DNA of 64,000 bases from an uncultured Acidobacteriota bacterium (GCA_963844845.1 CAWJPW010000009.1:155599-219598); one strand, 5' to 3'; positions 43,528 to 58,043 are shown, counted from the first letter of the stretch. Numbers and translations are program-made. Notes: a model not told the origin generated them from the sequence alone.

Positions 43528-45327
43528 ATGACGGACCGCACTCTGCTCGACCTGTACCGGCACGACGTCGACCACCCCCGGTCCGACCACTACCGTCACC
43601 TACTGCCCGGCCGGCCGGACCGTGTCCTCTCCACCGCCGACTTCCTTCGCCGCACGGCGGCGCTGGCGTCGGCCCTGGAAGGCCTCGGAATCGGCCATGG
43701 GGACCGTGTCCTGCTGCTCTCCGACAACCGTCCGGAGTGGCACATGGTCGATCTCGCCGTGCTCGACCTCGGGGCCGCCGACGTGCCCGTCTACGGCACC
43801 CTCACCGCCGAGCAGGTGGCCTACCAGGCGGCCGACTCCGGCGCCGTCGCTGTGGTGGCCGAGAATGCCGAGCAGGTGGCCAAGTTCCTCGAGGTGCGCA
43901 GCCGTTGTCCCGCCCTTGCCCACCTGATTCAGATCGAAGGGGAACCGGCGCCCGGGGTGATTTCCTTCGACGACCTCGTCACGGCAGGCGGTACCTCCGA
44001 TGCCGTCGACAGGTTCTGGCGGCGCGCCCACGACATCGACGAGGAGGCCCTGGCCACCCTGATCTACACGTCCGGCACCACCGGTGACCCCAAGGGCGTG
44101 ATGCTGAGCCACCGCAACTTGGTGGAGAACATCCGGGCGGCGGCGCCCAGGGTGCCGGTGATGAGCGAGGACCACGCGCTCGAGTTTCTCCCGCTCTGCC
44201 ACGTGCTCGAGCGGATGGTCGGCTATATCTACATGTGGCGTGGCACCACCAAGGCCTACTGCTCGGTGTACCACGTGGGCGACCTCATCGCCGCGGCCGC
44301 ACCCACCCTGTTCGTCGGCGTGCCCCGGTTCTTCGAGAAGGTGCACCAGAAGATCCACGAAAAAGTGGCCGGCGCCTCCGGGCTGCGCCGCTCGCTCTTC
44401 CACTGGGCCATCGACACCGGCCGCGAGGTGGCGCACCAGCGGATCGCGGGCAAGCAGCCCGGCGCCGTCCTGTCCGGCCGGTATGCCGTCGCCGAGCGGC
44501 TGGTTCTCGCCAAGGTGCGGGACGCCGTGTTCGGCGGCCGGGTCCGCTACGCCATCTCCGGCGGCGCCGAGCTCCCACTTCCCGTGAACGAGTTCTTCCA
44601 CGCCCTGGGGGTCCCGGTGGTCGAGGGCTACGGCCTCACCGAGACGTCGCCGGTCATCGCCGTGAACGGTGTCACCCTGGGGACGCTTCGGCTCGGCACC
44701 GTGGGACGCCCGCTGGAGAACCTCGAGGTGAAGCTGGCTCCTGACGGCGAGCTCCTGGTGCGCGGCCCCTCCGTCATGATGGGCTACTGGAACAAGCCGG
44801 AGCAGACCGCCGAGGTCCTCGACGACGAGGCCTTCCTGCACACCGGCGACATTGCCGAGCTCGACGACGACGGCTTCGTTCTCATCGTCGACCGCAAGAA
44901 GGACCTCATCGTCACCGCCGGTGGCAAGAACATCGCACCGCAGCCCATCGAGGGCCGGCTCAAGGAGTCGCCCTTCGTCGATGCGGCCGTGCTGGTCGGC
45001 GACCGGCGACCATTCGTGGTGGCGCTCATCGCCCCCAGCCTCGACGACCTTCAGCGCTGGGCGGGAGCGCACGGCGTCGGGGCCGTGACCGCCGCCGAGA
45101 TGCTCGCCTCTCCCGAGGTTGAGCAGCTCTTCGCGGACCTGGTGAGCACCGTCAACGCCGGCCTCGCACGCTACGAGCAGATCAAGCGCTTCGCCCTGCT
45201 GCCGGAGCCGCTGACGGTGGAGGGCGGCCAGCTGACGCCGACGATGAAGGTCAAGCGACGGGTCATCGAGCAGCAGCTGGGCAACGTCATCGAAGGGCTC
45301 TACGAGCCCGTGCCCCCCTCGGCGTAG
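43528..45327 (+). CDS. fadD: Long-chain fatty acid--CoA ligase
   Basis: YTSGTTGDPKG, FLPLCHVLER, GYGLTE, HTGD, DRKKD, TPTMKVKR. Confidence 0.92.
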   Translation: MTDRTLLDLYRHDVDHPRSDHYRHLLPGRPDRVLSTADFLRRTAALASALEGLGIGHGDRVLLLSDNRPEWHMVDLAVLDLGAADVPVYGTLTAEQVAYQAADSGAVAVVAENAEQVAKFLEVRSRCPALAHLIQIEGEPAPGVISFDDLVTAGGTSDAVDRFWRRAHDIDEEALATLIYTSGTTGDPKGVMLSHRNLVENIRAAAPRVPVMSEDHALEFLPLCHVLERMVGYIYMWRGTTKAYCSVYHVGDLIAAAAPTLFVGVPRFFEKVHQKIHEKVAGASGLRRSLFHWAIDTGREVAHQRIAGKQPGAVLSGRYAVAERLVLAKVRDAVFGGRVRYAISGGAELPLPVNEFFHALGVPVVEGYGLTETSPVIAVNGVTLGTLRLGTVGRPLENLEVKLAPDGELLVRGPSVMMGYWNKPEQTAEVLDDEAFLHTGDIAELDDDGFVLIVDRKKDLIVTAGGKNIAPQPIEGRLKESPFVDAAVLVGDRRPFVVALIAPSLDDLQRWAGAHGVGAVTAAEMLASPEVEQLFADLVSTVNAGLARYEQIKRFALLPEPLTVEGGQLTPTMKVKRRVIEQQLGNVIEGLYEPVPPSA

Positions 45328-45332
45328 GGACG

Positions 45333-46268
45333 GTGAGGGCCACCATCGTGTCCCCTCCCGTGGAGCGCCTGGGCGAGCTGCAGCTCGTGGTCGTCACCGG
45401 CAAGGGTGGCGTGGGCAAGAGCGTCTTCACAGCGGTCCTCGGCCGCCGTCTGGCGGCCTCCGGCCGACGCGCACTCCTCATGGAGGTGGATCCGCGCGAG
45501 AGCCTTCACGCCCTGCTGGACGTGGCGCCGTCCGGCGGAGAGCCGGTGCAGGTATCCGCGGGGCTCCATCTGCAGAATGTCCAACCCCGCCGCGTGGCCG
45601 ACGACCTCGTGATCGAGCGGCTCAAGATCGGTCTCCTCACCCGCAGGGTGCTGGGTAGCCCCGTGTACCAGCACTTCGTCGAGGGCGCCCCCGGCCTCAA
45701 GGAGACGGCAGTGCTCGGCCGGGTACTGCGGCTCCTCGCGGGCCGTGATCTTCACGGCATGCCGCGACCCGACGTGGTGGTTCTCGACGCTCCCGCTACC
45801 GGCCACGGCGTCTCGCTGTTGGCGGCTCCCCGCTTGGTGGCGGACGCCGTGCGAGGCGGCCCGGTGGGAACCATGGCCGAGGAGATCGCCGGCTTTGTGG
45901 CCGACCCGGCCCGCACCGGCATCGTCATCGTCACGACCGCCGAGGAGATGCCCGTCCAGGAGGCGCAGGAGCTCCTCGACCTGGTGGAGGAACGCCTGCA
46001 CCACGCACCGCAGCTGGTCGTCGTCAACGCCGTCTACCCGGCCGTTCCCCCAACAGTCGCCAGGATACGAGCCCCCGACGCGACCACCGCCCTGTGGCGT
46101 CGCCGTCGCCGGGTCAACGAGCGGGAGCTTGACCGGCTGGCCCGTCGCTGGCCCGGTCCCACCGCCATCCTCCCCCTGCTTCCCCTCGACCGCGGGCCCG
46201 AGCTGGTTGCCGCGCTCGAGGTCGAGCTCGACCGAGCGCTGCGCTTCGCCAGCGCCTCAACGCCATGA
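45333..46268 (+). CDS. ArsA/GET3-family ATPase, subunit 1 (Rv3679/BagA-like)
   Basis: GKGGVGKS, APGLKE, LDAPATGH, EEMPVQE, VVN. Confidence 0.82.
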   Translation: MRATIVSPPVERLGELQLVVVTGKGGVGKSVFTAVLGRRLAASGRRALLMEVDPRESLHALLDVAPSGGEPVQVSAGLHLQNVQPRRVADDLVIERLKIGLLTRRVLGSPVYQHFVEGAPGLKETAVLGRVLRLLAGRDLHGMPRPDVVVLDAPATGHGVSLLAAPRLVADAVRGGPVGTMAEEIAGFVADPARTGIVIVTTAEEMPVQEAQELLDLVEERLHHAPQLVVVNAVYPAVPPTVARIRAPDATTALWRRRRRVNERELDRLARRWPGPTAILPLLPLDRGPELVAALEVELDRALRFASASTP

Positions 46269-47338
46269 GCGTCGTACGGCCTGCCGAGCCATTGGTGGTC
46301 GTCGTCGGCTCGGGCGGCGTCGGCAAGACGACGCTGGCGGCGGCCCTGGGCGTGGGCGGCGCCCGCTCCGGCCGCGACACCTTGGTCATGACCTTCGACC
46401 CCTCGCTACGGCTCAAGGATGCGCTCGGCGTGGGCGACGCCGCTCGGGGCCGCGAGGTCGAGGTCGATCTCGATGCCCCCGCTTCGCTGCACGCGAGCCT
46501 CCTCGACGCCGGTCAGACCTTCGACCGCCTGGTGGAGCACTACTCGCCCGACGACGCAGCGCGCGACCGCATTCTCGGCAACCGCTTCTACCGCCACCTC
46601 GCCGCCAGCCTCGCCGGCGTGTTGGAGTACATGGCGGTGGAGCGCCTCTTCGAGGTCGCGGCCCAAGGCCGGTACCAGCAAGTGATTCTCGACACCCCGC
46701 CGACCCGCCAGGCCTTGGACTTCCTGCAAGCGCCCGAGCGCATCATCGGCTTCCTCGACAGCGGAGCGCTCAAGATCGCCCTCAAGCCCTGGTTCGACGA
46801 GTCGGGCCACATCCGCCCCATCGCCCGTCTCGGTCCCTTCGGGCGCAACGTGGAGGGTTTCCTGGACCGCCTGGTGGGTCTCGACCTTCTGCGTGACATG
46901 GCCGAGTTCTTCCAGGCGTTCGGCCCTCTGTACAAGGGCTTTCGTGCTCGTGCCCACGAGGTGCAGGCCCTCCTGCGTTCCCCCCGCACGATCTTCGTCC
47001 TGGTGAGCGGTCCGGGCCGTGAGCGGGTCGCCGACACGCTCTTCTTCGCCCGCCACCTGCGTGAGGCCGGCCACCGCCTGGGCCCCGTGGTGGTCAACCG
47101 GGTCCATCCCGAGCCCGACGGGGTCGCGCCCGCCTCGGATCCGCTGGCCGTGGCGCGCGACGGCCGCCAGCTGCTCGCCTGGCTCGGGCATCGCGACCGC
47201 GCGGGCGTCGAGCACCTCCGCTCGCTGCTCGGCGCGGAGCAGCCCCTGGCCGCCGTACCACTCCTCGCCGAGGAGCCCACCACGCTCGAGGGTCTCTCCG
47301 ATCTGGGCGACCTGCTCCAGGAGAGGCTGAGCCGTTGA
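46265..47338 (+). CDS. ArsA/GET3-family ATPase, subunit 2 (Rv3680/BagB-like)
   Basis: GSGGVGKTT, DPSLRLKDAL, EYMAVERL, LDTPPT..ALDFL.AP; ATGA overlap with subunit 1. Confidence 0.85.
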   Translation: MSVVRPAEPLVVVVGSGGVGKTTLAAALGVGGARSGRDTLVMTFDPSLRLKDALGVGDAARGREVEVDLDAPASLHASLLDAGQTFDRLVEHYSPDDAARDRILGNRFYRHLAASLAGVLEYMAVERLFEVAAQGRYQQVILDTPPTRQALDFLQAPERIIGFLDSGALKIALKPWFDESGHIRPIARLGPFGRNVEGFLDRLVGLDLLRDMAEFFQAFGPLYKGFRARAHEVQALLRSPRTIFVLVSGPGRERVADTLFFARHLREAGHRLGPVVVNRVHPEPDGVAPASDPLAVARDGRQLLAWLGHRDRAGVEHLRSLLGAEQPLAAVPLLAEEPTTLEGLSDLGDLLQERLSR

Positions 47339-47452
47339 CGCACCGCGGCATGAGAGCCCTGCACCTGGCTCGCCAACGCGTCTCACCGGGCCGCGCCCAA
47401 GCGGTGAAACCTCGGCAGCCAGGCGCAGTTATCCCCTAGATTCGCCCGCTCC

Positions 47453-47509
47453 TTGACACTCTTGCCGCAGCGCGGTACATTGTCACCGGAAGACGCCGCA
47501 CAGCGGCAA
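47453..47509 (+). promoter_or_regulatory. phaR promoter with two putative PhaR operators
   Basis: TTGACA(47453)-17-TACATT(47476); ttgccgcagcgcggtac (47462) and acgccgcacagcggcaa (47493). Confidence 0.75.
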
Positions 47510-47526: not shown

Positions 47527-48150
47527 ATGGCGTTGGAGACCACAATGATCCGACTGATCAAGCGCTACGGCAGCCGCAAGCTCTACGACACCGAGGAGAG
47601 CCGCTACGTCTCCCTCGAGGAGCTCGCCGCCTGGATTCGCCACGGGACCGAGATCCGGGTGGTAGACAACAAGACGGCCGAAGACGTCACCTCGCAGACG
47701 CTTACCCAGATCATCTCAGAGGAGGGCCGTCACGGGCGCACACTCCTGCCCAACGAGCTCCTGCACGAGCTCATCCGTCTCGGCGAGGAGGCCGTCAGCT
47801 CGGGGGTGGAGCAGCTGCAGACCGGCGTCGATCGGCTGGTGCAAGTTTCCATGGACCGACTCGGCCCCGTGCGCCGGGCCCGCGAGGAGATGGGGCGCCT
47901 GCGCGAGCGGCTCGCCGATCTCGAGGAGTCCCTGGTGGAGCTCGAGCAGGAGCGTCAGGAGCCTCCAGCTCCCGCGCCGGCCCCTGCCCGGACGCGACGT
48001 CCGGCAGCCAAGGCGTCGACGGCCAAGGCCAAGAAGGGCGCCAGCACGACCAAGAAGGCTGGCAGCACCACTCGCAAGGCGTCCACCACCAGGTCCAAGG
48101 CGGCCCCTCGTGGCCGCTCCCGCGCGACCAAAGACGGCAAGGCGTCATGA
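47527..48150 (+). CDS. phaR: PhaR-type PHA/granule regulator with Lys/Ala-rich C-terminal tail
   Basis: IKRYGSRKLYDTEESRYVSL, DVTSQTLTQII; coiled coil; AAKASTAKAKKG tail. Confidence 0.85.
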   Translation: MALETTMIRLIKRYGSRKLYDTEESRYVSLEELAAWIRHGTEIRVVDNKTAEDVTSQTLTQIISEEGRHGRTLLPNELLHELIRLGEEAVSSGVEQLQTGVDRLVQVSMDRLGPVRRAREEMGRLRERLADLEESLVELEQERQEPPAPAPAPARTRRPAAKASTAKAKKGASTTKKAGSTTRKASTTRSKAAPRGRSRATKDGKAS

Positions 48151-48464
48151 TTCGCCGCTCCACCCGGGCCCTCTACCTCGCCGGCCTCGGCGTCGTCACC
48201 TCGGCTCGCCGGCAGGGCCAGGCAGTCTTCACCCGCCTCGTCACCGAGGGCCGCAGAGTCGAGCGCCGTGAGCGCGCCCTCCTCAGCGGGCGTGTGGACC
48301 GCCTTCGGCACCGCGCCGACGATCTCGGGGCGGCCGTCGGCGCCCGCCTCGAGTCGGGCTGCGGCGCCCTGCTGCGGCGAGCCGGCGTACCCACCCGGCA
48401 GGAGGTTGCCGAGCTGGTCTCCCGCCTCGCCGAGCTCGACGCCCGGCTGAAGCGCCTGGGTTGA
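48147..48464 (+). CDS. Phasin (PhaI/PhaF family)
   Basis: YLAGLG, F.RLV.EG, GVPTRQEV..L..RL; ATGA overlap with phaR. Confidence 0.75.
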   Translation: MIRRSTRALYLAGLGVVTSARRQGQAVFTRLVTEGRRVERRERALLSGRVDRLRHRADDLGAAVGARLESGCGALLRRAGVPTRQEVAELVSRLAELDARLKRLG

Positions 48465-51561: not shown

Positions 51562-53241
51562 CTAACGCTCGCCCCGCCGCAAGGGCAGCAGGAGCCCGAG
51601 CGCGATGAGGCCGGTCCATACCGGCCACGGCACATGGACAGCCGCGAGCATCGCGCCGCTCACCAGACAGAAGCCTCCGTAGAGGGTGGCGCGCAGGCCC
51701 GTGAACGGGCTTTCCGGAGGCCTCCTGGTATGTTGCTCCAGCAGCCGGAGGCCTTCCGTCACGAGCGCGGGCACCCGCACGACGGCCTCGAGGATGTCCG
51801 GCGCGCCCCGCATCACCTCCCGCGACAGACGTAGGGGGCTGAACATCTGCCGAAACACCCGTCTCACATGGCGCTCGGACGCCTCGGCGACGTTGAAGTC
51901 GGAGTCGAGCAGGAAGCCCAATGCCTCGTAGGTCACCAACGCCTTCACCGTCATCACCAGCTCGACGGGAAAGTACATGTGGTAATGGCCCCCCCGCCGC
52001 ACCGACTCCAGCAGGAGCTGCGCTAAGGAGTACTCCTCCAGTCGCCTGGCACGACGCCAGCGGCGGCTGATCTCCTCCACCTCACGACGGAATCCGGCGG
52101 GGTCGCAGCCCGGCGCCTGGTCCGCCAGAGCCGTGAGGTAGCGAGCGGCCCCCTCGAAGTCTTCGATCACCACACAGTAGTAGTAGTACAGCAGTGACCG
52201 CCGGAGCTCGCGGTCGAGACGACCCACCATCCCAAGGTCGATGAAGCCCAGGCGAGGCCCGGGCAGCACCAGAAGGTTGGCAGGGTGGAGGTCGGCGTGG
52301 AAGAAGCCGTCCTGATAGAGCATGCGGATGACCGCCGACGCGCCCGCGTCGATGAGGCGGGCGCGATCCTCGGCAGACAGCGCCAGGGCCTCGGGCGTGT
52401 CCGGCCGGAAGCCCTCCAGGTACTCCATGCAGAGCACGTCACGTCCCGACAGCGTCCGCTCGATGCCGGGGAACACGACCTCCGGAAGATCGCGGAAGTT
52501 GGCGGCGAAGGTCTCGGCGTTCTCCGCCTCGCGCGTCATCTCGACCTCGTGCAGCGTGTACTGGAGGAACTCCGCCACCAGTCGACGCGGGTGGTAGCGG
52601 GGCAGCAGCAGCTGCAGCGTCGCACCGACCCCGCGCAGCAGCCTGGCGTCGCGGTGCAGCACGTGACGGATCCCCGGCTTGACCACCTTGAGGATCACCG
52701 CCTCTCCGCTGTGTGTGGTGGCACGGTGGGTCTGGGCGATGGATGCGGAGGCCAGCGGCGCCGGGTCAACCCACGCAAAGAGCTCGTCGAGGGGCCGACC
52801 GAGATCGCGCTCGACGATCTCCTGGATGGCTTCGAACGGTACCGGCGGCAGCCGGTCGAGCAGGTTACGAAGCTCCGAGGTCACCGTTTCCGGTAGGAGA
52901 TCGCGGCGCAGGCTGAGTAGCTGTCCCAGCTTCACGAAGGTCGGACCGAGCAGCTCGAGCCGCCGGCGCAGCTGCACGGGAAACGGCTGCCGTACGAGCT
53001 CGCGGCTGACGAACAGGTACAAGGGCAGGCTTGCCAGCATCCACGCTGCGCCTCCGAGGGCGGTTCGCCGCTCCCGGCGCCGCCGCCTCGCCTCGGCCAC
53101 GAAAGCCCCCGCCAGTAGCCCGAAGACATGGCGCTGGATCTCCGCGAAGCGCCGCACGAGCCCTCGCTGACGCCACCGCGGCCGCCCACGTGGCGCGCCC
53201 CCTCTTCCCGCGCGGACCCCGTCGGCCCCCCCGCCGGTCAC
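51562..53241 (-). CDS. ABC1/AarF/UbiB family atypical kinase
   Basis: LGPTFVKLGQ, ASASIAQ, KVVKP, FFHADLHPAN, IDLGMVG; two C-terminal TM helices; start uncertain. Confidence 0.88.
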   Translation of the reverse strand: MTGGGADGVRAGRGGAPRGRPRWRQRGLVRRFAEIQRHVFGLLAGAFVAEARRRRRERRTALGGAAWMLASLPLYLFVSRELVRQPFPVQLRRRLELLGPTFVKLGQLLSLRRDLLPETVTSELRNLLDRLPPVPFEAIQEIVERDLGRPLDELFAWVDPAPLASASIAQTHRATTHSGEAVILKVVKPGIRHVLHRDARLLRGVGATLQLLLPRYHPRRLVAEFLQYTLHEVEMTREAENAETFAANFRDLPEVVFPGIERTLSGRDVLCMEYLEGFRPDTPEALALSAEDRARLIDAGASAVIRMLYQDGFFHADLHPANLLVLPGPRLGFIDLGMVGRLDRELRRSLLYYYYCVVIEDFEGAARYLTALADQAPGCDPAGFRREVEEISRRWRRARRLEEYSLAQLLLESVRRGGHYHMYFPVELVMTVKALVTYEALGFLLDSDFNVAEASERHVRRVFRQMFSPLRLSREVMRGAPDILEAVVRVPALVTEGLRLLEQHTRRPPESPFTGLRATLYGGFCLVSGAMLAAVHVPWPVWTGLIALGLLLPLRRGER

Positions 53242-53281
53242 GGCGCACCCCCGAGCCGCCGCTCGCTCATGGCGAGGCTCC

Positions 53282-54826
53282 TCAGCGGTTGCGCCCGTAC
53301 TTCTCGTGGCTGGAGACCCAGTCAAGCGAGGAGATGGCGGCGCCCAGCGAGATCTCACCGGCCAGCGCCACCGCCGCGACGATCTCGGCCAGCTTCCGGA
53401 CCTTGGCCTTACCGACACACCCAAGAAGCTCGAGGCATTCGCGCTGGGTCGCGAGGCCCGTTCCGCCGCCGTACGTGGCCACGATCAGGGACGGAATCGT
53501 GATCGAGAGGTAGAGGTCACGGTCCGGCGTGAGCTCGGAGTAGAGGATCCCGGAGGAGGACTCGGCCACGTTTGCCACATCCTGTCCGGTGGCGATGAAC
53601 ATGGCAGTGATTCCGTTGGGCGAGTGGCAGCCGTTGTTGTTGGCGCCCGAGAGGAACGCGCCCACGTTGGCAATAGAGGAGTGATACTGGAGGCTCTCCG
53701 GCTCCACCCGCATGTTCTCGATCAGCACCTCGCGGGGAATCACTACCTCCGCGGTGACCCGCTTGCCGCGCGTACGCATAACGTTGATCTGAGAGTGCTT
53801 CTTGTCGGTGGCCAGATTCGACTCCAGGTAGAACGACCGCACCGTGTCCACCTGGTCGAGGATCCAGCTGCAGGCGGCGAATGTCGCCCGCCCGACCATG
53901 TTCTGACCGGCGGCGTCACCGGTGGAGAAGTTGAAGCGCAGGAAAGCGATCTTGCTCGCCAGGTAGGTGTCGACATAGAGCAGCTTCGCGACCTTGGAGG
54001 TGGCCTCCGCCGCCTGCCGGATCTCCTCGAGGTGCTCGTCGACCCAGTCGCGGAAGCCGCGCGCTTCCCGCGCCGACTCGAACACGAACACGGGCGCCCG
54101 CTGCATCTTGTCGTCCTGCACGGTCGTGATGGCGCCGCCGGCGAGATTGATGACCTTCATCCCCCGGTTGTAGGACGCCACCAGCGTGCCCTCCGTGGTG
54201 GCGAGCGGGATGAGGTACTCCCCCTGAGCGAACTCACCGTTGACGCGCAGCGGGCCGGCGAGGCCGATGGGGACCTGAGCGACGCCGCTGAAGTTCTCGA
54301 TGTTGCCACCAGTCATGGTGGGATCGAAGGAGTACGACTTGACGTGGTGGAGCGTCGCTCCGGTGAAGCTCTCGGCGAACTGCTGGCGGCGCGCAATGAT
54401 CTCGGGCGAGGTGTTGTCTTCCTTGTCGTAGGGCACCGAGGTCGCCGCCTGTGTGACGTCCCGGATCGAGTCCTTGACCGTAAACCTCAGCTTGCCGAAA
54501 GGGGTCGTGTCGAAGACCAGCTCGAGCTCATGCTTGCCCTTGCCGAGCTCCCCCCCCTCCCACACCATGGTGACGACCTTGGCGAGGGGAAACGGCAAGG
54601 GAGCTGCGGTCGAGATGTCCCTCGGGCGCACCGTAGCGTCATCGTCGAGATCGACTCGGAGCCGCTCGAGCGGCACCGAAGCGCCATCCACGCTCACCTC
54701 CCGGATCCCCACCACGCGGGCATCGCTGAGACGGTTCTTGAGGCTGAAGTGAACGCCTTCCCCATCGCTACGGAGACTCCCCAGAGTATAGAGCTGCTTC
54801 AGGATCAGTGACGGAATTCTCACCAC
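53282..54826 (-). CDS. Class I HMG-CoA reductase with extra N-terminal domain
   Basis: ENFSG, TTEGTLVAS, GDAAGQNM, SNLATDKK, TGQD.A, GGGT, GEISL, SHEKYGR; about 120 aa N-terminal extension. Confidence 0.88.
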   Translation of the reverse strand: MVRIPSLILKQLYTLGSLRSDGEGVHFSLKNRLSDARVVGIREVSVDGASVPLERLRVDLDDDATVRPRDISTAAPLPFPLAKVVTMVWEGGELGKGKHELELVFDTTPFGKLRFTVKDSIRDVTQAATSVPYDKEDNTSPEIIARRQQFAESFTGATLHHVKSYSFDPTMTGGNIENFSGVAQVPIGLAGPLRVNGEFAQGEYLIPLATTEGTLVASYNRGMKVINLAGGAITTVQDDKMQRAPVFVFESAREARGFRDWVDEHLEEIRQAAEATSKVAKLLYVDTYLASKIAFLRFNFSTGDAAGQNMVGRATFAACSWILDQVDTVRSFYLESNLATDKKHSQINVMRTRGKRVTAEVVIPREVLIENMRVEPESLQYHSSIANVGAFLSGANNNGCHSPNGITAMFIATGQDVANVAESSSGILYSELTPDRDLYLSITIPSLIVATYGGGTGLATQRECLELLGCVGKAKVRKLAEIVAAVALAGEISLGAAISSLDWVSSHEKYGRNR

Positions 54827-54888
54827 GTACTCCCGTCCGGTATCGAGGTTTGGTCTCGAGTCTATCACCGTGCCGGCGCTTCGAGGAG

Positions 54889-55530
54889 CTACCAGCGCAG
54901 CGTCACCCCGACGCTCGCTTCGCCCTGAACGAAGTTGCTGGAGTAACCGAACTCGGCCGCGTTGCTGTGGTTGGACAGCGCGTCGTTGGCCGCGGTCCAG
55001 TAGCCTCTGAGATCGACGCGCAAGCCGACGTGGGGTGACAGGACGTACTTGGCGCCGGTGGCGAGGCTCGCCGAGAAGCGGGTGTCGGCGCTGCCTCCCG
55101 TGACCTGCGGCTCGAGCAGCGTGACCCCTGCGCCGACGCCCACGTAAACCGTGCCGAAACGCCGGAACCAGCTCTGAACGAGACCCAGGTGGAGGTAGGT
55201 CACATCCAGGTCGCCGAGCTCGCGGGAGCCAGTTGAGAGCTCATACCTGCTCTGCAGCGCTCCGCTCTGACGACTGACCCAGAGCTCCATCTGCCGGTCG
55301 GCGCTGACCGGAAGGTCGAGGGCGAGGCCATAGGACGCCGACCCCTCGAGGTCGGCGGTGAACTTGAACGGGAAGACGACGGTGTCGAACCCTTCCACGC
55401 GACCACCGTCGCGGTAACCGCCGAACACGGTGAGCTCCGGCCGGGTGATCCCGTCGCCCGACCCCGGCGCCCACTGCGCCCATGCCAGCGAGGGCGCCAG
55501 CAGCACGAGCACGACCATCAACCTGCGCAT
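54889..55530 (-). CDS. Outer membrane beta-barrel protein
   Basis: Signal peptide, YVGVGAG, GLRVDLRG, C-terminal Trp. Confidence 0.75.
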   Translation of the reverse strand: MRRLMVVLVLLAPSLAWAQWAPGSGDGITRPELTVFGGYRDGGRVEGFDTVVFPFKFTADLEGSASYGLALDLPVSADRQMELWVSRQSGALQSRYELSTGSRELGDLDVTYLHLGLVQSWFRRFGTVYVGVGAGVTLLEPQVTGGSADTRFSASLATGAKYVLSPHVGLRVDLRGYWTAANDALSNHSNAAEFGYSSNFVQGEASVGVTLRW

Positions 55531-55622: not shown

Positions 55623-56423
55623 ATGGCGACCGGAGAACTACAGCTTCACCCCCGCTGCATCGGCCTCGCGCTAAGCGGAGGAGCGGTGCGCGGAGCCGCA
55701 CACGTGGGAGTTCTCCAGGTCCTCGAGGAGGCCGGCATCCGCCCCGCAGTCGTGGCGGGCACCAGCGTCGGTTCGTTGGTAGGGGCGGCTTACGCCGCGG
55801 GCCTCTCCGCCGCCGCCATCGGCGACATCTTCCGCACCGTGCGCTGGCCACGGCTTGCCCGCCTTTCCCTGGGCAGTCGGTACAGCCTCTTTGACACCCG
55901 TCCCCTCGGCCGGATCCTCCAGGAGCGCTTCGGCGTCGAGTGCATCGAGGGTCTGGCGCGGCCGTTCGCCGCCATTGCCTGCGACGTCCTCACCGGCGAG
56001 CGGGTCGTGTTCCGCTCGGGCCCCCTCGCCGCCGCCCTGCGGGCCAGCTCCGCGGTTCCCGGCGTCTTCCCCCCGTTGGATCTCGACGGCCGTCTCCTGG
56101 TGGACGGCGCGGTGCTCGACAACCTGCCGGTCGGCGTCGCACGCGACCTCGGAGCCGACTACGTCATCGCAGTGGACCTCGTGCCACCGCCCTCGGGCAA
56201 CCGCCGCCCCCGCAACTTCCTCGAGCTGATAATGACTACAGGCTACCTGTGGAGCCGGGCAAACCACCCCGCACCTGGCCCGGCCGAGTGCCGGGTGGTG
56301 CCGGACGTGGCTGACTTCCTCGGCTGGGACCTTGCCGACGTCGCCGAGCTGGAGACCCGCGGCCGCGCAGCCGCCGAGGAGGCCCTGCCCGGACTGCGGC
56401 GCGACCTCGGCCTCGGCGGCTGA
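55623..56423 (+). CDS. Patatin-like phospholipase/lipase
   Basis: LSGGAVRG, GTSVG nucleophile, ASSAVPG, VDGA; TATAAT at 55581. Confidence 0.92.
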   Translation: MATGELQLHPRCIGLALSGGAVRGAAHVGVLQVLEEAGIRPAVVAGTSVGSLVGAAYAAGLSAAAIGDIFRTVRWPRLARLSLGSRYSLFDTRPLGRILQERFGVECIEGLARPFAAIACDVLTGERVVFRSGPLAAALRASSAVPGVFPPLDLDGRLLVDGAVLDNLPVGVARDLGADYVIAVDLVPPPSGNRRPRNFLELIMTTGYLWSRANHPAPGPAECRVVPDVADFLGWDLADVAELETRGRAAAEEALPGLRRDLGLGG

Positions 56424-56560
56424 CCTCCCGGGGAGGCAGTGTCACAGATCGGGGACAGATGGCGGCCGCACCAGGCGCCCGAGGTGGCGGCCGGGGTTGG
56501 CATCGAGGTTGCGTTGACCACCTGCAGCCCGGCATCGAACCGTCGGGCATGGAGGTACCG

Positions 56561-57274
56561 ATGCGTCAACGCCTGATGGTCTTGCTGCTCATCACCGCCT
56601 GCTCCACCGTAACGGCCCTCCCCGCCAACGCTCAGGGGCGCTGGGGGCCCGGAGCCGACTCCTCCTCACTGCGCTTCCGAGTCGGCCTCTTCGACCCAGC
56701 GGCTGATTCGAGCTACTGGGACGGGAGCCTCCTCGACTTCACCGGCAGCGCCGGCGACTTCCAGGACGTGGCGGTGGGCCTCGACTACGTGTGGCGCTTC
56801 AGCTCCCGCAGCGGCCTGATGCTCACCTTCGACCACTGGGAGGGCGACACCACCCAGGCCTACCGGGACTATGTGGACGGCGGCGGCGGCGACATCCGCC
56901 ACACCACCACGGTGGAGACATCGGGGATCGGGGCGGCCTGGGTGTATCACCTCGTCGACCGGCCGGCCCCGGTGTCACCCTACCTCGGTGTAGGCGGCGG
57001 GCTGGTGTCCTGGCGCCTGGAGGAGGCCGGCCGCTTCATCGACTTCACCACCGCCCAGGGGGAAATCTTCGCCGCCCGCTTCGTCGATGAGGGCACGACC
57101 CTCGCGTGGTACGCCCTCGCCGGCGTCGAGGTGGGCCTCTCCCCCACCTGGTCGCTGCTGGTGGAGGCGCGTTGGCGCAGTGCCGACGACGAGCTCAGCG
57201 GCGACTTCGCCGGCCTCGGCACCCTCGACCTCTCGGGAACGGAGCTCACCTGCGGGGTGTCGCTCAACTTCTGA
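56561..57274 (+). CDS. Outer membrane beta-barrel protein
   Basis: Signal peptide, SPYLGVGGG, EARW, C-terminal Phe; GGAGG RBS. Confidence 0.75.
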   Translation: MRQRLMVLLLITACSTVTALPANAQGRWGPGADSSSLRFRVGLFDPAADSSYWDGSLLDFTGSAGDFQDVAVGLDYVWRFSSRSGLMLTFDHWEGDTTQAYRDYVDGGGGDIRHTTTVETSGIGAAWVYHLVDRPAPVSPYLGVGGGLVSWRLEEAGRFIDFTTAQGEIFAARFVDEGTTLAWYALAGVEVGLSPTWSLLVEARWRSADDELSGDFAGLGTLDLSGTELTCGVSLNF

Positions 57275-58043
57275 AGGTCGTCGCGGCGATCGCGTCGTAG
57301 AGCTCACTCAGCTCTGCGGTGAGCTTGTGCCGGGGGGCCAGGTGTATGAGCGGGCGGTGCACCTCGTGCGACTCCCGCACCTTCACCGACGCCGAGAGGG
57401 GCGGATCGAGGACCGGGAGCCCCGCTTCCCGCAGCTCCTGCACCAGCCGCCTGGGCAGGCGCGCCCGCCCCTGGAACTGGTTGACCACGATCCCCGCCAC
57501 CTCGAGGCGGGGGTTGTGGTCCGCCCGCACCTCGGCGACGCTGTCCAGCAGGCCGTGCAAGGCGCGCCGGGAGAACTCGTCACAGTCGAATGGGATCAGG
57601 CAGCGGTCCCCTGCAATCAGGGCGGACAGGGTGAAGAAGTTCACCGCCGGCGGCGTGTCGAGGTAAATCTCGTCGTACCCATCGAGGGCGTCGAGGGCGT
57701 CCCGCAGTTTGTAGATCTTGTAGCGTGACTCGAGCTTCGGCTGCAGCGCCTCGAGCTCCGCACTCGCGGGGACTACGTCGAGACCCGGGAACGGCGACGG
57801 ATGAACGTAGGCGGCGGCCTCCTCGCGGAACAGCTGGAATCCCAGGGTCTGCTCGAAGAAGGTGCCAAGGGACGGGTGCAGAGTGCCCGCCTCGTCACCG
57901 AGAAGGTAGTGGCTGGCGTTGGCCTGGGGATCGAGATCGACGACGAGAGTCCGCAGGCCACGGCTCGCAGCGATGGCGGCGAGGTTGCACACGAGCGTGG
58001 ACTTACCCACGCCGCCCTTCTGGTTGAAGACAACCCAGCGCAT
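57264..58043 (-). CDS. Orphan ParA family ATPase
   Basis: NQKGGVGKST, DLDPQAN, DTPP, IPFDCD, VRES; no parB in the window. Confidence 0.9.
   Translation of the reverse strand: MRWVVFNQKGGVGKSTLVCNLAAIAASRGLRTLVVDLDPQANASHYLLGDEAGTLHPSLGTFFEQTLGFQLFREEAAAYVHPSPFPGLDVVPASAELEALQPKLESRYKIYKLRDALDALDGYDEIYLDTPPAVNFFTLSALIAGDRCLIPFDCDEFSRRALHGLLDSVAEVRADHNPRLEVAGIVVNQFQGRARLPRRLVQELREAGLPVLDPPLSASVKVRESHEVHRPLIHLAPRHKLTAELSELYDAIAATTFRS

What the first reader, a model, noticed from the sequence alone, without database searches (positions are those of the whole stretch)
43528..58043. Candidate undescribed lipid-droplet system: PHA-granule proteins with WS/DGAT instead of PHA synthase
Seen: about 14.5 kb encodes an acyl-CoA ligase, two ArsA/GET3 ATPases, PhaR, two phasins, SCP2, WS/DGAT, an ABC1/UbiB kinase, HMG-CoA reductase, patatin, two small OM barrels and ParA, with no phaC/phaA/phaB in the window. 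Known: PhaR and PhaF/PhaI phasins are PHA-granule proteins; WS/DGAT makes wax esters/TAG; patatin-domain lipases (ATGL) mobilise lipid droplets; plant plastoglobules carry ABC1 kinases and phytyl-ester acyltransferases. Inference: a complete neutral-lipid inclusion module covering activation, synthesis, coat, lipid transfer, targeting, turnover, positioning and regulation, built by reusing PHA granule machinery.
Basis: partly seen in the sequence, partly recalled or inferred. Interest (0 to 1): 0.9.

Follow-up and report, generated by a model that had tools for sequence, protein, structure and literature searches.

The report
Wax-ester lipid droplet gene module
This stretch of neighbouring genes most likely lets a bacterium that has no bioplastic (PHA) synthase make, coat, regulate and break down wax-ester fat droplets, using a regulator and coat proteins so far known only from bioplastic granules.

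Summary
One was misread. The "HMG-CoA reductase" carries every tested mark of FcrA, the HMGR-like fatty acyl-CoA reductase described in 2025 (PMC11948995). The genome shows no mevalonate pathway. So the locus encodes FadD → FcrA → WS/DGAT, a wax-ester pathway.

No PHA synthase was found in the 98%-complete genome or in 40 relatives. Its only WS/DGAT, only PhaR and both phasins lie in this cluster.

In a 301-genome sample of the phylum, all 33 WS/DGAT genomes have PhaR, and 40 of 50 PhaR genomes lack PhaC. A block BagA–BagB–PhaR–phasin–patatin, often beside FcrA–ABC1–WS/DGAT, recurs in distant families. Parts of it occur in Rhodothermales and Chloroflexota MAGs.

A 15-bp palindrome sits inside the PhaR, phasin and ParA promoters, but not before the FcrA operon.

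The core idea is supported. The isoprenoid reading, the OM barrels and full co-regulation are not. No experiment exists. I found no paper describing this in 8 searches.

The parts
43528..45327 (+). FadD-type long-chain acyl-CoA ligase (activation step)
   Evidence: AMP-binding E 2.6e-71 plus AMP-binding_C_3. The best NCBIfam hit is FadD11, 395 bits, below its cut-off of 950. It lies directly upstream of BagA in 15 of 20 relatives' loci and in L128. The genome holds two paralogues at 62-64% identity.
45333..46268 (+). BagA-like ArsA/Get3-family ATPase
   Evidence: ArsA_ATPase E 5.4e-22. NF053622 BagA 95 bits against a cut-off of 400. The GKGGVGKT Walker A is nearly invariant across 14 orthologues. 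It is adjacent to BagB in 20 of 20 relatives' loci.
46265..47338 (+). BagB-like ArsA/Get3-family ATPase; its start overlaps the BagA stop by 4 nt
   Evidence: ArsA_ATPase E 1.5e-20. NF053621 BagB 225 bits against a cut-off of 521. 26 of 41 relatives have an orthologue at E <= 1e-60. It lies directly next to PhaR in 10 of 12 phylum-level loci.
47336..47508 (+). PhaR promoter with three operator-like palindromes (starting at 47336, 47463 and 47494)
   Evidence: TTGACA-N17-TACATT at 47453-47481. TGCCGCAGCGCGGTA fills the spacer and the -10. A TGC[CG]GCA half-site is found upstream of PhaR in 25 of 26 loci.
47527..48150 (+). PhaR-like regulator: PhaR DNA-binding domain, a helical middle part and a Lys/Ala/Thr/Pro-rich basic tail
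   Evidence: PHB_acc_N E 5.5e-25. TIGR01848 86 bits against a cut-off of 109. No other Pfam domain hit. The basic tail covers residues ~145-207. It is the only PhaR in the genome.
48147..48464 (+). Phasin 1 (PF05597); its start overlaps the PhaR stop
   Evidence: Phasin E 1.7e-14. Tandem phasins follow PhaR in L125, L127, L128 and L131.
48550..49020 (+). SCP2-fold lipid-binding protein; the likely true start is 48595
   Evidence: SCP2 E 1.3e-4. The alignment of 14 orthologues starts at MAAEIF. AF2 pLDDT 87.1. Foldseek top hit 2cx7, E 7.5e-16, 47% identity. An SCP2 gene lies within about 0.4 kb of Phasin2 in 4 loci and is separated from it only by WS/DGAT in 6 more.
49317..50873 (-). WS/DGAT acyltransferase (ester-forming step); the likely true start is near 50687
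   Evidence: WS_DGAT_cat 4.4e-45 and WS_DGAT_C 1.2e-40. TIGR02946 419 bits against a cut-off of 310. HHCIGDG motif. It is the only copy in the genome.
50868..51025 (.). Divergent WS/DGAT-Phasin2 control region with three operator-like palindromes (starting at 50868, 50978 and 51011) and an AT-rich stretch
   Evidence: TTGACA-N17-TATATT at 50968-50996, 11 of 12 matches. The palindromes have 1, 3 and 1 mismatches. The same two-site layout occurs before Phasin2 in 13 loci of the order.
51092..51505 (+). Phasin 2 (PF05597), the main candidate coat protein
   Evidence: Phasin E 3.3e-31. TIGR01837 94.2 bits against a cut-off of 94.7. All 30 nearest Atlas clusters are PF05597.
51562..53424 (-). ABC1/UbiB-family atypical kinase ending in a conserved hydrophobic hairpin. 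The true start probably lies just after the FcrA stop.
   Evidence: ABC1 E 1.8e-60. TIGR01982 303 bits against a cut-off of 487. The KLGQ, AQTHRA, HADLHP and DLG motifs and the tail are conserved in 10 orthologues. It sits between FcrA and WS/DGAT in L120, L121, L123 and L124.
53282..54868 (-). FcrA-type fatty acyl-CoA reductase (HMGR class-I homologue with an N-terminal Lad domain)
   Evidence: HMG-CoA_red 4.3e-124 plus HMG-CoA_red_N 3.5e-35. It has W-x-x-x-H, E for Ser684 and A for the K-N-L lysine (compared with PMC11948995 section 19). The genome has no HMGS C-domain, no MVK over cut-off, and has IspG.
54889..55530 (-). Small OM beta-barrel 1; membership uncertain
   Evidence: OMP_b-brl E 5e-7. 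It is next to FcrA in G017, G015 and G019 only.
55623..56423 (+). Short patatin-like lipase (candidate mobilising enzyme)
   Evidence: Patatin E 9e-34. GGAVRG, GTSVG and DGA motifs. Orthologues lie next to FcrA in L094 (72% identity) and L096 (44%).
56459..57274 (+). Small OM beta-barrel 2; probably an unrelated neighbour
   Evidence: OMP_b-brl E 3.1e-8. It is syntenic only in L102.
57264..58043 (-). Orphan ParA-type ATPase (candidate positioning factor)
   Evidence: AAA_31 3.1e-31 and CbiA 4.7e-25. Orthologues at 64-67% identity lie in or near the cluster in L092, L123 and L125.
58070..58098 (-). ParA promoter with an operator-like palindrome (58083-58097)
   Evidence: TTGACG-N17-TAGACT on the minus strand. 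TGCCGCAGTGCGTCA has 1 mismatch. L092 has the same layout, and L125 has a near-palindrome.

Best explanation
The locus is the local version of an old, conserved gene module for intracellular wax-ester (neutral-lipid) bodies in bacteria that have no PHA synthase.

**Biosynthesis (homology to characterised enzymes)**
- FadD activates long-chain fatty acids.
- FcrA, an HMGR-like reductase with a lipid-binding Lad domain, reduces acyl-CoA to fatty alcohol.
- WS/DGAT esterifies the alcohol with a second acyl-CoA.

**Coat and regulation (inferred from the PHA paradigm, gene linkage and promoter anatomy)**
- The two PF05597 phasins coat the hydrophobic body.
- PhaR sits on a 15-bp palindrome inside the core promoters of its own gene, of the phasin gene and of ParA. 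It represses them until nascent lipid bodies titrate it away.

**Mobilisation (inferred)**
- A patatin-type lipase hydrolyses the stored ester. This is the short form here, and a ~420-aa form directly after the phasin in most other genomes.

**Accessory parts (roles inferred, low confidence)**
- The ABC1/UbiB-type kinase is encoded between FcrA and WS/DGAT in other families. It is anchored by a C-terminal hydrophobic hairpin and organises or regulates lipid handling at the body.
- The BagA/BagB Get3-like ATPase pair handles hydrophobic proteins or lipids for the body.
- SCP2 is an order-specific lipid shuttle.
- ParA positions the bodies.
- The OM barrels are probably neighbours only.
For: **1. 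Enzymes**
- WS/DGAT is over its curated cut-off and has the HHxxxDG motif.
- The HMGR-like protein has the Lad domain and all three FcrA-specific substitutions (PMC11948995 sections 18-19).
- No HMGS or MVK was found, and IspG is present.

**2. No PHA synthase**
- Own genome: 0 hits with three models. tblastn with the phylum's own PhaC_N-hit ORFs gave no significant hit.
- 0 of 41 relatives have PhaC_N. 0 of 41 are over cut-off for the class III model.
- PhaC_N does detect short class-III-like PhaC in 10 of 301 genomes of the phylum, so the test has power.

**3. Exclusive location**
- The genome's single WS/DGAT, single PhaR and both phasins are all in this cluster.

**4. Phyletic pattern**
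- Relatives: WS/DGAT 27, phasin 29 and PhaR 29 of 41. All three are missing together in four genera of family f2.
- Phylum sample (n = 301): 33 of 33 WS/DGAT genomes have PhaR, against 17 of 268 others.
- 40 of 50 PhaR genomes and 36 of 41 phasin genomes lack PhaC.
- All 19 Lad/FcrA genomes have PhaR, 17 have phasin, and none has PhaC.

**5. Linkage**
- WS/DGAT lies within 5 kb of phasin and/or PhaR in 9 of 27 relatives.
- PhaR lies within 10 kb of WS/DGAT in 14 of 33 genomes of the phylum sample, from at least 7 families.
- Of the 12 phasin loci I picked from other families, 10 show BagB next to PhaR, 11 PhaR next to phasin, 10 the long patatin next to the phasin, 8 FcrA, 7 ABC1 and 5 WS/DGAT within 20 kb. 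L151 adds one more.
- MAGs labelled Salinibacter, Rhodothermales and Bacteroidetes show PhaR-phasin-long patatin(-ABC1). An Anaerolineae MAG shows phasin-PhaR-long patatin. All 5 such genomes lack PhaC_N.

**6. Operator**
- The half-site occurs upstream of PhaR in 25 of 26 loci and of every separately transcribed Phasin2 (13 loci), against BagA 2 of 29 and SCP2 1 of 15.
- All 6 matches with <= 2 mismatches in the 64-kb window fall in three promoters of the cluster.
- Those three are 3 of only 5 sigma-70-like sites that an independent scan found in 15 kb, where 0.8 were expected.
Against: - There is no experimental datum: no lipid analysis, no localisation and no expression data. No RNA run is listed.
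- In the phylum sample, 19 of 41 phasin genomes and 17 of 50 PhaR genomes have no WS/DGAT. Three of them (G041, G133, G181) carry the Lad/FcrA domain. In the two I fetched (G041, G133) a PF01553 acyltransferase sits in the WS/DGAT slot, as it also does in G318, which has WS/DGAT elsewhere. 11 PhaC-less PhaR genomes have neither WS/DGAT nor FcrA, including G003 and G022 of the window's own family.
- 10 PhaC-positive genomes have PhaR, and where I compared positions it lies next to PhaC. So PhaR keeps its classical partner where one exists.
- The operator is absent upstream of the FcrA-ABC1 operon at 0 of 16 sites, of the short patatin at 0 of 3, and of 5 PhaR genes from other phyla.
- Genome-wide, matches to the palindrome are no more frequent than to scrambled controls.
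- In the window's own family the genes are often dispersed. For example G006 has them 70-600 kb apart on one contig.
- PhaR, both phasins, BagA/B and ABC1 all score below the NCBIfam equivalog/subfamily cut-offs.
- Related genomes are not independent, so the counts overstate the support.
Confidence: 0.65

Rival explanations
1. The block PhaR-phasin-patatin-BagAB is a general device for handling hydrophobic material or lipid stress, such as membrane or free fatty acid/alcohol homeostasis. It is not a dedicated storage-droplet coat. Wax-ester synthesis is only one of several pathways it accompanies.
For: - 11 of 40 PhaC-less PhaR genomes have neither WS/DGAT nor FcrA.
- A PF01553 acyltransferase replaces WS/DGAT in three genomes.
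- Mycobacterial BagAB is linked to glycerol and nitric-oxide toxicity, not to droplets (passages of PMC10597346).
- The operator does not cover the biosynthetic operon.
Against: - All 33 WS/DGAT genomes of the phylum sample carry PhaR.
- The block directly abuts FcrA-ABC1-WS/DGAT in several families.
- Characterised PF05597 and PhaR proteins act on inclusion surfaces (recalled knowledge of PhaF/PhaI and PhaR).
Confidence: 0.17
2. It is an ordinary PHA-granule system whose synthase is too divergent, or lies in the unassembled 2% of the genome.
For: - PhaR and PF05597 phasins are classical PHA proteins.
- The genome is 98.09% complete, not closed.
- In 10 genomes of the phylum PhaR co-occurs with PhaC.
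Against: - No PhaC in the own genome with three models and lineage-specific tblastn.
- 0 of 41 relatives and 0 of 5 genomes from other phyla have it.
- A gap in one assembly cannot explain 40 PhaC-less PhaR genomes.
- The cluster's enzymes are wax-ester enzymes.
Confidence: 0.04
3. One reading: a prenyl-lipid/isoprenoid droplet fed by HMG-CoA reductase, with the ABC1 kinase as in plastoglobules.
For: - The HMGR family hit is real.
- ABC1 kinases are core proteins of cyanobacterial and plant lipid droplets, together with an acyltransferase (passages of PMC12223511).
- DXS was not found over its cut-off.
Against: - The protein has the FcrA-specific residues and the Lad domain.
- According to PMC11948995, characterised FcrA does not reduce HMG-CoA.
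- No HMG-CoA synthase and no mevalonate kinase were found, and IspG of the MEP pathway is present.
Confidence: 0.05
4. The product is triacylglycerol rather than wax ester. WS/DGAT acts as a DGAT, and FcrA serves another purpose.
For: - WS/DGAT enzymes are often bifunctional (stated in PMC11948995, passages).
- I did not search for the Kennedy-pathway genes.
Against: - FcrA is linked to WS/DGAT in one operon in several families.
- FcrA is present in 16 of 33 WS/DGAT genomes of the phylum sample.
Confidence: 0.09

Closest known systems
FcrA + WS/DGAT (+ FadD) wax-ester pathway (Grossi et al. 2025, PMC11948995; I read the abstract, sections 18 and 19, and passages)
   Same: - The same three enzymes.
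- The same Lad-HMGR architecture and discriminating residues.
- The same absence of a mevalonate pathway.
- The nearest WS/DGAT relatives include Promineifilaceae, the source of the characterised Pb-FcrA.
   Different: - The word phasin does not occur in that paper's main text, and it reports FcrA as usually not close to WS/DGAT in Halobacteriales.
- Here the enzymes sit in a conserved cluster with a regulator, coat proteins, a lipase, a UbiB-type kinase and Get3-like ATPases.
- Its supplementary tables could not be read.
PHA granule (carbonosome) regulatory circuit: PhaR repressor plus phasin (recalled from the Ralstonia/Paracoccus and Pseudomonas PhaF/PhaI literature)
   Same: - The PhaR DNA-binding domain.
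- PF05597 phasins.
- Operator-like palindromes in both the phaR and the phasin promoters.
- A hydrolase gene beside them.
   Different: - No PHA synthase in the genome or its relatives.
- No PHB_acc C-terminal domain hit; a basic Lys/Ala-rich tail stands in its place.
- The hydrolase is a patatin lipase and not a PhaZ depolymerase.
- The linked biosynthetic genes make wax esters.
Actinobacterial lipid-droplet proteins TadA/HBHA and MLDS/MLDSR (PMC5504291 and PMC6176652 seen only as search listings with the start of each abstract; PMC10699116 abstract and passages)
   Same: - Bacterial neutral-lipid bodies with dedicated surface proteins and a cognate regulator.
- Basic tails that may contact DNA.
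   Different: - Unrelated protein families.
- A different phylum.
- TAG rather than wax ester.
- No PhaR or PF05597 involvement has been described.
BagAB (Rv3679/Rv3680) of Mycobacterium tuberculosis
   Same: - Two adjacent ArsA/Get3-type ATPase genes.
- They are the best NCBIfam matches.
- They are linked to glycerol/lipid-related stress (passages of PMC10597346).
   Different: - Scores are far below the equivalog cut-offs (95 of 400 and 225 of 521).
- Here the pair is genomically tied to PhaR-phasin-patatin.
- No droplet role has been reported for BagAB in the papers I saw.
Plastoglobules and cyanoglobules (PMC12223511, passages)
   Same: ABC1K kinases together with a neutral-lipid acyltransferase on a lipid droplet.
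   Different: - Those droplets hold prenyl lipids and carry fibrillins.
- In that study the phasin marks separate PHA bodies.
- Here the ABC1 gene lies in an operon with FcrA and WS/DGAT.

Membership tests
FcrA (HMGR-like fatty acyl-CoA reductase) | Class-I HMGR catalytic domain with the catalytic Glu, Lys, Asp and His retained | tested here: met
   PF00368 E 4.3e-124. The TTEG, DKK and GQD motifs and the C-terminal His align with solved HMGRs. Which motif holds which catalytic residue is partly recalled.
FcrA (HMGR-like fatty acyl-CoA reductase) | N-terminal long-chain alkyl carrier (Lad) domain | tested here: met
   PF25653 HMG-CoA_red_N, E 3.5e-35, residues 22-136. That this Pfam family equals Lad is my inference from its position and description.
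FcrA (HMGR-like fatty acyl-CoA reductase) | Bulky residue (Trp) in place of Leu862; Glu in place of Ser684; a small residue in place of the pocket Lys | tested here: met
   W-V-S-S-H against L-x-x-x-H. L-E-S-N-L-A-T-D-K-K against S-G-N-x-x-x-D-K-K. S-I-A-N-V against K-N-L (features from PMC11948995 section 19).
FcrA (HMGR-like fatty acyl-CoA reductase) | Genome lacks the rest of the mevalonate pathway | tested here: met
   HMG_CoA_synt_C 0 hits. Mevalonate kinase model 37 bits against a cut-off of 163. GcpE/IspG 367 bits. Later mevalonate-pathway steps were not searched.
FcrA (HMGR-like fatty acyl-CoA reductase) | Reduces long-chain acyl-CoA but not HMG-CoA | not testable with these tools
   Needs an enzyme assay.
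WS/DGAT | Both domains, a score over the curated cut-off, and the HHxxxDG active site | tested here: met
   PF03007 and PF06974. TIGR02946 418.8 bits against 309.95. HHCIGDG.
PhaR (PHA synthesis repressor) | N-terminal PHB_acc_N DNA-binding domain | tested here: met
   E 5.5e-25, residues 10-68.
PhaR (PHA synthesis repressor) | Full-length equivalog score / C-terminal PHB-binding region | tested here: not met
   TIGR01848 86.1 bits against a cut-off of 109.45. No second Pfam domain. The C-terminus is a basic low-complexity tail.
PhaR (PHA synthesis repressor) | Operators in its own promoter and the phasin promoter | tested here: inconclusive
   A conserved palindrome sits in both promoters. 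Binding was not tested.
PhaR (PHA synthesis repressor) | Works with a PHA synthase and PHA granules | tested here: not met
   No PhaC in the genome or in 40 relatives.
Phasin PF05597 (PhaF/PhaI type) | Pfam domain over the gathering score | tested here: met
   108.4 and 54.4 bits against a cut-off of 28.8. TIGR01837 gives 94.2 and 54.6 bits against 94.7, so both are just or clearly below it.
Phasin PF05597 (PhaF/PhaI type) | Bound to PHA granules | tested here: not met
   No synthase, hence no PHA expected. The actual localisation is not testable here.
BagA/BagB (mycobacterial ATPase pair) | Equivalog-level similarity | tested here: not met
   95.4 of 400 and 225.1 of 521 bits. They are the best-scoring names only.
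ArsA/Get3/TRC40 superfamily | ArsA_ATPase domain with a deviant Walker A; paired subunits | tested here: met
   PF02374 E 5.4e-22 and 1.5e-20. Conserved GKGGVGKT / GxGGVGKT. TIGR00345 scores 67 and 61 bits against 135, below the subfamily cut-off. Tail-anchor handling was not shown.
ABC1/UbiB atypical kinases | ABC1 domain with KxGQ, the Ala-rich loop and catalytic-loop motifs | tested here: met
   PF03109 E 1.8e-60. The motifs are in the consensus of 10 orthologues. It is not a UbiB equivalog (303 bits against 487.55).
Patatin-like lipases | Gly-rich oxyanion hole, GxSxG serine and DGA/G aspartate | tested here: met
   GGAVRG, GTSVG and DGA. PF01734 E 9e-34.
SCP2 | SCP2 alpha/beta fold | tested here: met
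   AF2 pLDDT 87.1, pTM 0.80. Foldseek hit 2cx7, E 7.5e-16, TM 0.77/0.93.
ParA partition ATPases | A cognate ParB or adaptor and a defined cargo | not tested
   Only the ATPase domain was shown. No Pfam family of a ParB type appeared among the neighbours scanned.

The most novel reading that the evidence does not exclude
A cross-phylum 'wax-ester body' organelle toolkit exists. Its parts would be:
- a PhaR-type sensor-repressor;
- PF05597 phasins as the coat;
- a dedicated patatin lipase;
- a Get3-like BagAB ATPase pair that delivers hydrophobic-hairpin proteins such as the UbiB-type kinase to the droplet;
- that kinase, working between FcrA and the ester synthase;
- a PhaR-controlled ParA that spaces the bodies.

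If true, three things follow. PhaR and phasins would be general hydrophobic-inclusion proteins rather than PHA-specific ones. Mycobacterial BagAB would gain a lipid-droplet function. UbiB-family proteins would gain a role in neutral-lipid synthesis.
Probability: 0.3. Interest if true: 0.85.

Novelty: new variant of a known kind. Interest (0 to 1): 0.75.

Why it matters
Outside the Actinobacteria, bacterial neutral-lipid bodies have almost no known structural or regulatory proteins. PhaR and phasins are annotated everywhere as evidence for PHA metabolism.

If this module works as inferred, several things change:
- Many 'PHA' annotations in PhaC-less genomes are wrong. That would cover 40 of 50 PhaR genomes in this phylum sample.
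- Wax-ester storage in abundant soil and sediment lineages gets a genetic marker set.
- The newly found FcrA pathway gains its cellular context.
- Three poorly understood families (BagAB Get3-like ATPases, UbiB/ABC1 kinases, orphan ParAs) get a concrete, testable setting.
- It offers a compact parts list for engineering wax-ester droplets.

Tried and rejected
**Tried, no result**
- Complex prediction: complex prediction with BagA + BagB + the ABC1 C-terminal hairpin returned 'no answer'. No conclusion is drawn.
- Expression: the look-up of sequencing runs listed no RNA holder, only soil and sediment DNA contig sets with a share of at most 0.38.
- Amphipathicity of the phasins: the hydrophobic-moment script was uninformative, and no window passed my threshold in real or shuffled sequences.
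- Genome-wide operator census: matches with <= 2 mismatches number 55, against 28-101 for six scrambled controls. A regulon therefore cannot be read from raw counts. Only the clustering in the locus and the orthologous conservation count as evidence. The isolated sites by a patatin gene, malic-enzyme genes, infC and an EamA gene are leads only.

**Readings rejected or left undecided**
- Isoprenoid/mevalonate reading of the HMGR-like gene: rejected.
- Plus-strand ORFs 48507-49181, 49266-50939, 51007-51834 and 53306-54811: no family hit, rejected as genes.
- PHA synthase: sought with PF07167, TIGR01836, TIGR01838 and tblastn, not found. PhaA, PhaB, PhaE and PhaZ were not searched.
- Taxon of the window: not established. 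The nearest Atlas phasin cluster is commonest in Acidobacteriota, which is a lead only.

**Literature**
- 8 full-text searches found no paper that links PhaR or phasin with WS/DGAT, FcrA, BagAB or ABC1. The only exception is a passing remark on a phasin gene on a WS/DGAT scaffold (PMC10351704).
- Subscription papers and all supplementary files were out of reach.
- The supplements of PMC11948995 (FcrA distribution and gene contexts) and of PMC10699116 (whether Rv3679/80 are in droplet proteomes) may bear on the novelty and on BagAB.

- The search for homologous proteins, the search of protein representatives, the metagenome scan and the second structure job were not used.

Full report
**What is in the sequence**

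The window has about 68% G+C. Between 43528 and 58043 it encodes the following genes:
- FadD-type acyl-CoA ligase (+)
- two overlapping ArsA/Get3-type ATPase genes (+)
- a PhaR-like gene (+)
- phasin 1 (+), whose start overlaps the PhaR stop
- an SCP2 gene (+)
- WS/DGAT (−)
- phasin 2 (+)
- an ABC1/UbiB kinase (−)
- an HMGR-family gene (−)
- a small OM barrel (−)
- a patatin lipase (+)
- a second OM barrel (+)
- a ParA-type ATPase (−)

Tex follows the cluster. A PurF-like amidotransferase and an α/β-hydrolase precede it.

- The ATPase pair scores best against the mycobacterial BagA and BagB models, far below their cut-offs.
- PhaR has only the N-terminal DNA-binding domain. It ends in a Lys/Ala/Thr/Pro-rich basic tail.
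- The SCP2 Pfam hit is marginal, but the fold is clear: AF2 pLDDT 87, and the Foldseek top hit is Thermus SCP2 2cx7 at E 7.5e-16.
- The patatin has an intact oxyanion hole and Ser-Asp dyad.

Besides PF00368, the protein carries PF25653 at its N-terminus. Grossi et al. 2025 (PMC11948995; I read the abstract, sections 18 and 19, and passages) describe FcrA. It is a class-I HMGR homologue, often with an N-terminal lipid-binding 'Lad' domain. [quoted passage not shown]

The paper lists three pocket differences from HMGR:
- a bulky residue (Trp) four residues before the catalytic His;
- Glu instead of Ser684;
- a small residue instead of the pocket Lys.

The alignment of the window protein with solved HMGRs shows W-V-S-S-H, L-E-S-N-L-A-T-D-K-K and S-I-A-N-V at those places. 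All three are of the FcrA type, and the TTEG, DKK and GQD motifs are kept.

The genome gives no hit to the HMG-CoA synthase C-domain. It gives only a 37-bit GHMP-kinase hit to the mevalonate kinase model. It does contain IspG (GcpE, 367 bits). DXS was not found over its cut-off, which I cannot explain.

The enzymes therefore read FadD → FcrA → WS/DGAT, the wax-ester route of that paper. The nearest WS/DGAT relatives outside the lineage are 40-55% identical. They come from Chloroflexota (including Promineifilaceae, the source of the characterised FcrA), from Rhodothermales/Salinibacter and from Solirubrobacterales.

**No PHA synthase**

- Own genome (98.09% complete): PhaC_N, the class III model and the class I model all give nothing.
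- PhaC_N does detect short class-III-like synthases elsewhere in the phylum, in 10 of 301 genomes.
- ORFs read over those hits in three genomes find nothing in the own genome by tblastn. The best E is 0.014.
- Among 41 genomes of the order (own genome included), PhaC_N hits 0. The class III model hits 0 over its cut-off, with one 23-bit match.
- The genome's only WS/DGAT, only PhaR and both PF05597 phasins lie in this cluster.

**Conservation inside the order**

Of the 41 genomes, 27 have WS/DGAT, 29 have a phasin, 29 have PhaR, and 26 have a strong BagB orthologue. Four genera of family f2 lack all of these.

Around BagB I fetched 20 loci and mapped the window's proteins on them by tblastn:
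- BagA-BagB adjacency: 20 of 20.
- FadD directly upstream: 15 of 20 (4 without it, 1 at a contig end).
- PhaR next to BagB: 2 of 20 (L045, L049).
- SCP2 next to BagB: 2 of 20 (L046, L048).

So in this family the trio usually lies apart from the rest.

From the coordinates, WS/DGAT lies within 5 kb of a phasin and/or PhaR in 9 of 27 WS/DGAT genomes. In the other 18 the genes are on different, often short, contigs or far apart. G006 is an example of the latter.

Twenty further loci show the same genes in shuffled orders:
- L092: PhaR – long patatin – SCP2 – WS/DGAT – Phasin2 – ABC1 – FcrA – OMP1 – ParA.
- L094: SCP2 – WS/DGAT – Phasin2 – FcrA – short patatin.
- L096 (the other family): short patatin – FcrA – ABC1 – long patatin – Phasin2 – PhaR – WS/DGAT – SCP2.
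- L101 and L102: OMP1 – FcrA – ABC1 – Phasin2 – SCP2 – long patatin – PhaR.

A ~420-aa patatin paralogue sits between PhaR and SCP2 in most of these genomes. It is missing from the window, where phasin 1 takes its place. The genome's nearest match to it is only 32% identical.

**Conservation across the phylum and beyond**

I searched an evenly drawn sample of 301 genomes. The overlaps were computed from handle lists that I copied from those tables.

| Family | Genomes over cut-off (of 301) |
|---|---|
| PhaR (PHB_acc_N) | 50 |
| PF05597 phasin | 41 |
| WS/DGAT | 33 |
| Lad/FcrA (PF25653) | 19 |
| PhaC_N | 10 |

- All 33 WS/DGAT genomes have PhaR, against 17 of the other 268.
- 40 of 50 PhaR genomes and 36 of 41 phasin genomes lack PhaC.
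- All 19 Lad genomes have PhaR. 17 have the phasin, 16 have WS/DGAT, and none has PhaC.
- Phasin and WS/DGAT overlap in 22 genomes. 19 have the phasin only, 11 have WS/DGAT only, and 249 have neither.
- Related genomes are not independent, so I give counts and no probabilities.
- PhaR lies within 10 kb of WS/DGAT in 14 of the 33 genomes, from at least seven families (coordinates).
- In the PhaC-positive genomes where I compared positions, PhaR lies next to PhaC. The classical pairing therefore exists in this phylum too.

I then picked 12 of the 41 phasin genomes: the strongest hits, and those where a WS/DGAT was near. I fetched 20 kb around each phasin.
- PhaR is next to the phasin in 11 of 12.
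- BagB is next to PhaR in 10.
- The long patatin follows the phasin in 10.
- FcrA is within the stretch in 8, ABC1 in 7 and WS/DGAT in 5.
- In L120, L121, L123 and L124 the order is FcrA-ABC1-WS/DGAT head to tail on one strand. In L122 it is WS/DGAT-FcrA-ABC1.
- The exception is L129, from the PhaC-bearing genus, with a lone phasin.

L151 (G041) repeats the whole block, with a 384-aa PF01553 acyltransferase where WS/DGAT would be. The same holds in L127 and L128. G041 and G133 have no WS/DGAT at all, so this looks like a replacement of the ester synthase.

In families f27, f39 and f46, PhaR is followed by an unassigned ~210-aa protein and a GNAT, and then by WS/DGAT.

Outside the lineage:
- 3 of 38 WS/DGAT loci have a phasin gene directly beside WS/DGAT on the opposite strand. 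These are MAGs labelled Salinibacter, Rhodothermales and Bacteroidetes.
- 12 of 38 loci, all Solirubrobacterales, have FadD directly upstream.
- The five genomes holding L054, L058, L059, L063 and L064 all have PhaR, and none has PhaC_N.
- Their PhaR loci read PhaR-phasin-long patatin(-ABC1) in the three Rhodothermales-type MAGs, and phasin-PhaR-long patatin in the Anaerolineae MAG. In Promineifilum only PhaR matched.

**Regulation**

K-mer counting on upstream regions led to a 15-bp palindrome, TGCCGCA-N-TGCGGCA. Its half-site occurs at these rates:

| Upstream of | Loci with half-site |
|---|---|
| PhaR | 25 of 26 |
| Phasin2 | 13 of 34 |
| WS/DGAT | 8 of 16 |
| BagA | 2 of 29 |
| SCP2 | 1 of 15 |

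- The 13 Phasin2 cases are all loci where the gene has an upstream region of its own. 16 of the 21 without a site are the loci from other families, where the phasin follows PhaR.
- The WS/DGAT cases are largely the shared divergent region.

In the 64-kb window there are 16 matches with at most 3 mismatches, and 6 with at most 2. All 6 are intergenic and lie in this cluster:
- three before PhaR (47336, 47463, 47494);
- two between WS/DGAT and Phasin2 (50868, 51011, plus 50978 with 3 mismatches);
- one before ParA (58083).

An independent consensus scan of 15 kb found five σ70-like sites, where 0.8 were expected. Three of them are exactly these promoters:
- PhaR: TTGACA-N17-TACATT
- Phasin2: TTGACA-N17-TATATT
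- ParA: TTGACG-N17-TAGACT

In the PhaR and Phasin2 promoters the palindrome covers the spacer and runs into the −10. In the ParA promoter it covers the −35 and the spacer. The ParA orthologue in L092 has the same layout, L125 has a near-palindrome, and L123 has none.

Results against a wider regulon:
- No site before the FcrA(-ABC1) operon at 0 of 16 places tested.
- None before 3 short patatin genes or before PhaR of the 5 other-phylum loci. Before FadD, only 3-mismatch matches in 1 of 4 loci.
- No genome-wide excess over scrambled controls.

This is the layout expected from the classical PhaR model (recalled): the repressor controls itself and the coat protein, not the synthase.

**How it most likely works**

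*Shown by homology to characterised enzymes:* acyl-CoA formation, four-electron reduction to fatty alcohol, and esterification.

*Inferred from linkage, phyletic pattern and promoter anatomy:*
- The phasins coat the wax-ester body.
- PhaR senses the body and de-represses phasin, itself and ParA.
- A patatin lipase mobilises the store.

*Inferred with low confidence:*
- The ABC1/UbiB protein keeps its kinase-like motifs. It ends in a conserved helix-PWP-helix hydrophobic hairpin and acts at the body between FcrA and the ester synthase.
- BagAB serves the insertion or extraction of hydrophobic clients.
- SCP2 shuttles lipid in this order only.
- ParA spaces the bodies.
- The PhaR tail may tie the bodies to DNA, as PhaF or MLDS do (recalled).
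- The OM barrels are probably bystanders.

**Comparison with what is known, and novelty**

The enzymes are known (PMC11948995). Bacterial lipid-droplet proteins are known from Actinobacteria, but they belong to other families (listings; PMC10699116). ABC1 kinases on droplets are known from cyanobacteria and plastids (PMC12223511). BagAB is known only from mycobacterial stress phenotypes (PMC10597346).

Eight full-text searches found no paper that ties PhaR or phasins to WS/DGAT, FcrA, BagAB or ABC1. The only exception is one passing remark (PMC10351704). Supplements and subscription journals were not searchable.

I therefore rate the finding a new variant of a known kind: a neutral-lipid inclusion system built with PHA-type regulator and coat proteins, and conserved across phyla. 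It rests on comparative genomics alone.

**Verdict**

The core is supported. The HMGR reading, the OM barrels and the claim of completeness are not.
- Confidence in the best explanation is 0.65.
- Interest is 0.75.

Noticed in passing
L127:11783-12988 (-), L128:2483-3664 (+), L151:4447-5601 (-): A ~385-400-aa PF01553 (PlsC/GPAT-type) acyltransferase occupies the WS/DGAT slot next to FcrA/ABC1 in three genomes. Two of them (G041, G133) have no WS/DGAT at all. This may be a non-orthologous ester synthase or an ether-lipid branch.
   Followed up: partly
L096:12577-15507, L101:7769-10909, L102:11829-14816, L103:276-3887, L107:10357-13023: A ~900-1200-aa protein lies next to PhaR in five relatives. 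It is readable as PAS-GGDEF-EAL from its sequence; I did not scan it against Pfam. The window genome's 47%-identical homologue is elsewhere (C11:145015-147936). This may be a c-di-GMP input.
   Followed up: no
window 47959-48147 (PhaR residues ~145-207): PhaR ends in a Pro/Ala/Lys/Thr-rich basic tail that resembles histone-H1-like tails (as recalled for PhaF). It could tether the bodies to the nucleoid.
   Followed up: no
window 51562-51700 (last ~45 residues of ABC1): There is a conserved C-terminal hydrophobic hairpin (GLRGTL-hydrophobic-PWP-hydrophobic-RR) in all 10 orthologues aligned. It is reminiscent of monolayer-embedded hairpins of droplet proteins.
   Followed up: partly
G000:C11:111622 and C11:111667-113310: A palindrome with 2 mismatches lies 45 bp upstream of a 547-aa patatin-domain protein, far from the cluster. 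Other 1-mismatch sites lie by malic-enzyme genes (C9:1484, C9:4801), between an NMO gene and infC (C1:267463), and upstream of an EamA transporter gene (C11:415355).
   Followed up: partly
whole genome G000: IspG is present, but no DXS scores over its cut-off (best 82 bits, which looks like a 2-oxoacid dehydrogenase E1). Either DXS lies in the missing 2% or DXP is made another way.
   Followed up: no
window 50880-50960: An ~80-bp AT-rich stretch, unusual in a 68% G+C genome, lies in the divergent WS/DGAT-Phasin2 control region.
   Followed up: no
L147, L149, L150 (families f39, f27, f46): A different arrangement: PhaR, an unassigned ~207-218-aa protein, a GNAT acetyltransferase, then WS/DGAT. 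These genomes have no PF05597 phasin. The unassigned protein may be another kind of coat protein.
   Followed up: partly
L068-L075, L077, L085, L087, L088; L078:9180-9770: In Solirubrobacterales MAGs a FadD gene lies directly upstream of WS/DGAT (12 loci). In one locus a BagA-like gene lies next to WS/DGAT.
   Followed up: no
G019:C5:157862-158891; G011:C621:13-1080: The BagB orthologue of G019 matches in four pieces in different frames, so it is probably disrupted or misassembled. That of G011 carries one in-frame TGA.
   Followed up: no
window 57801-58213: The longest Tex ORF overlaps ParA by 243 nt. The Tex_N domain starts at residue 141, and an ATG at 58213 follows a promoter-like site. 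The real Tex start is probably there.
   Followed up: partly
window 40102-40893; L111:13928-14677: An alpha/beta-hydrolase upstream of the cluster has a 52%-identical homologue 3.5 kb from WS/DGAT in G036.
   Followed up: no
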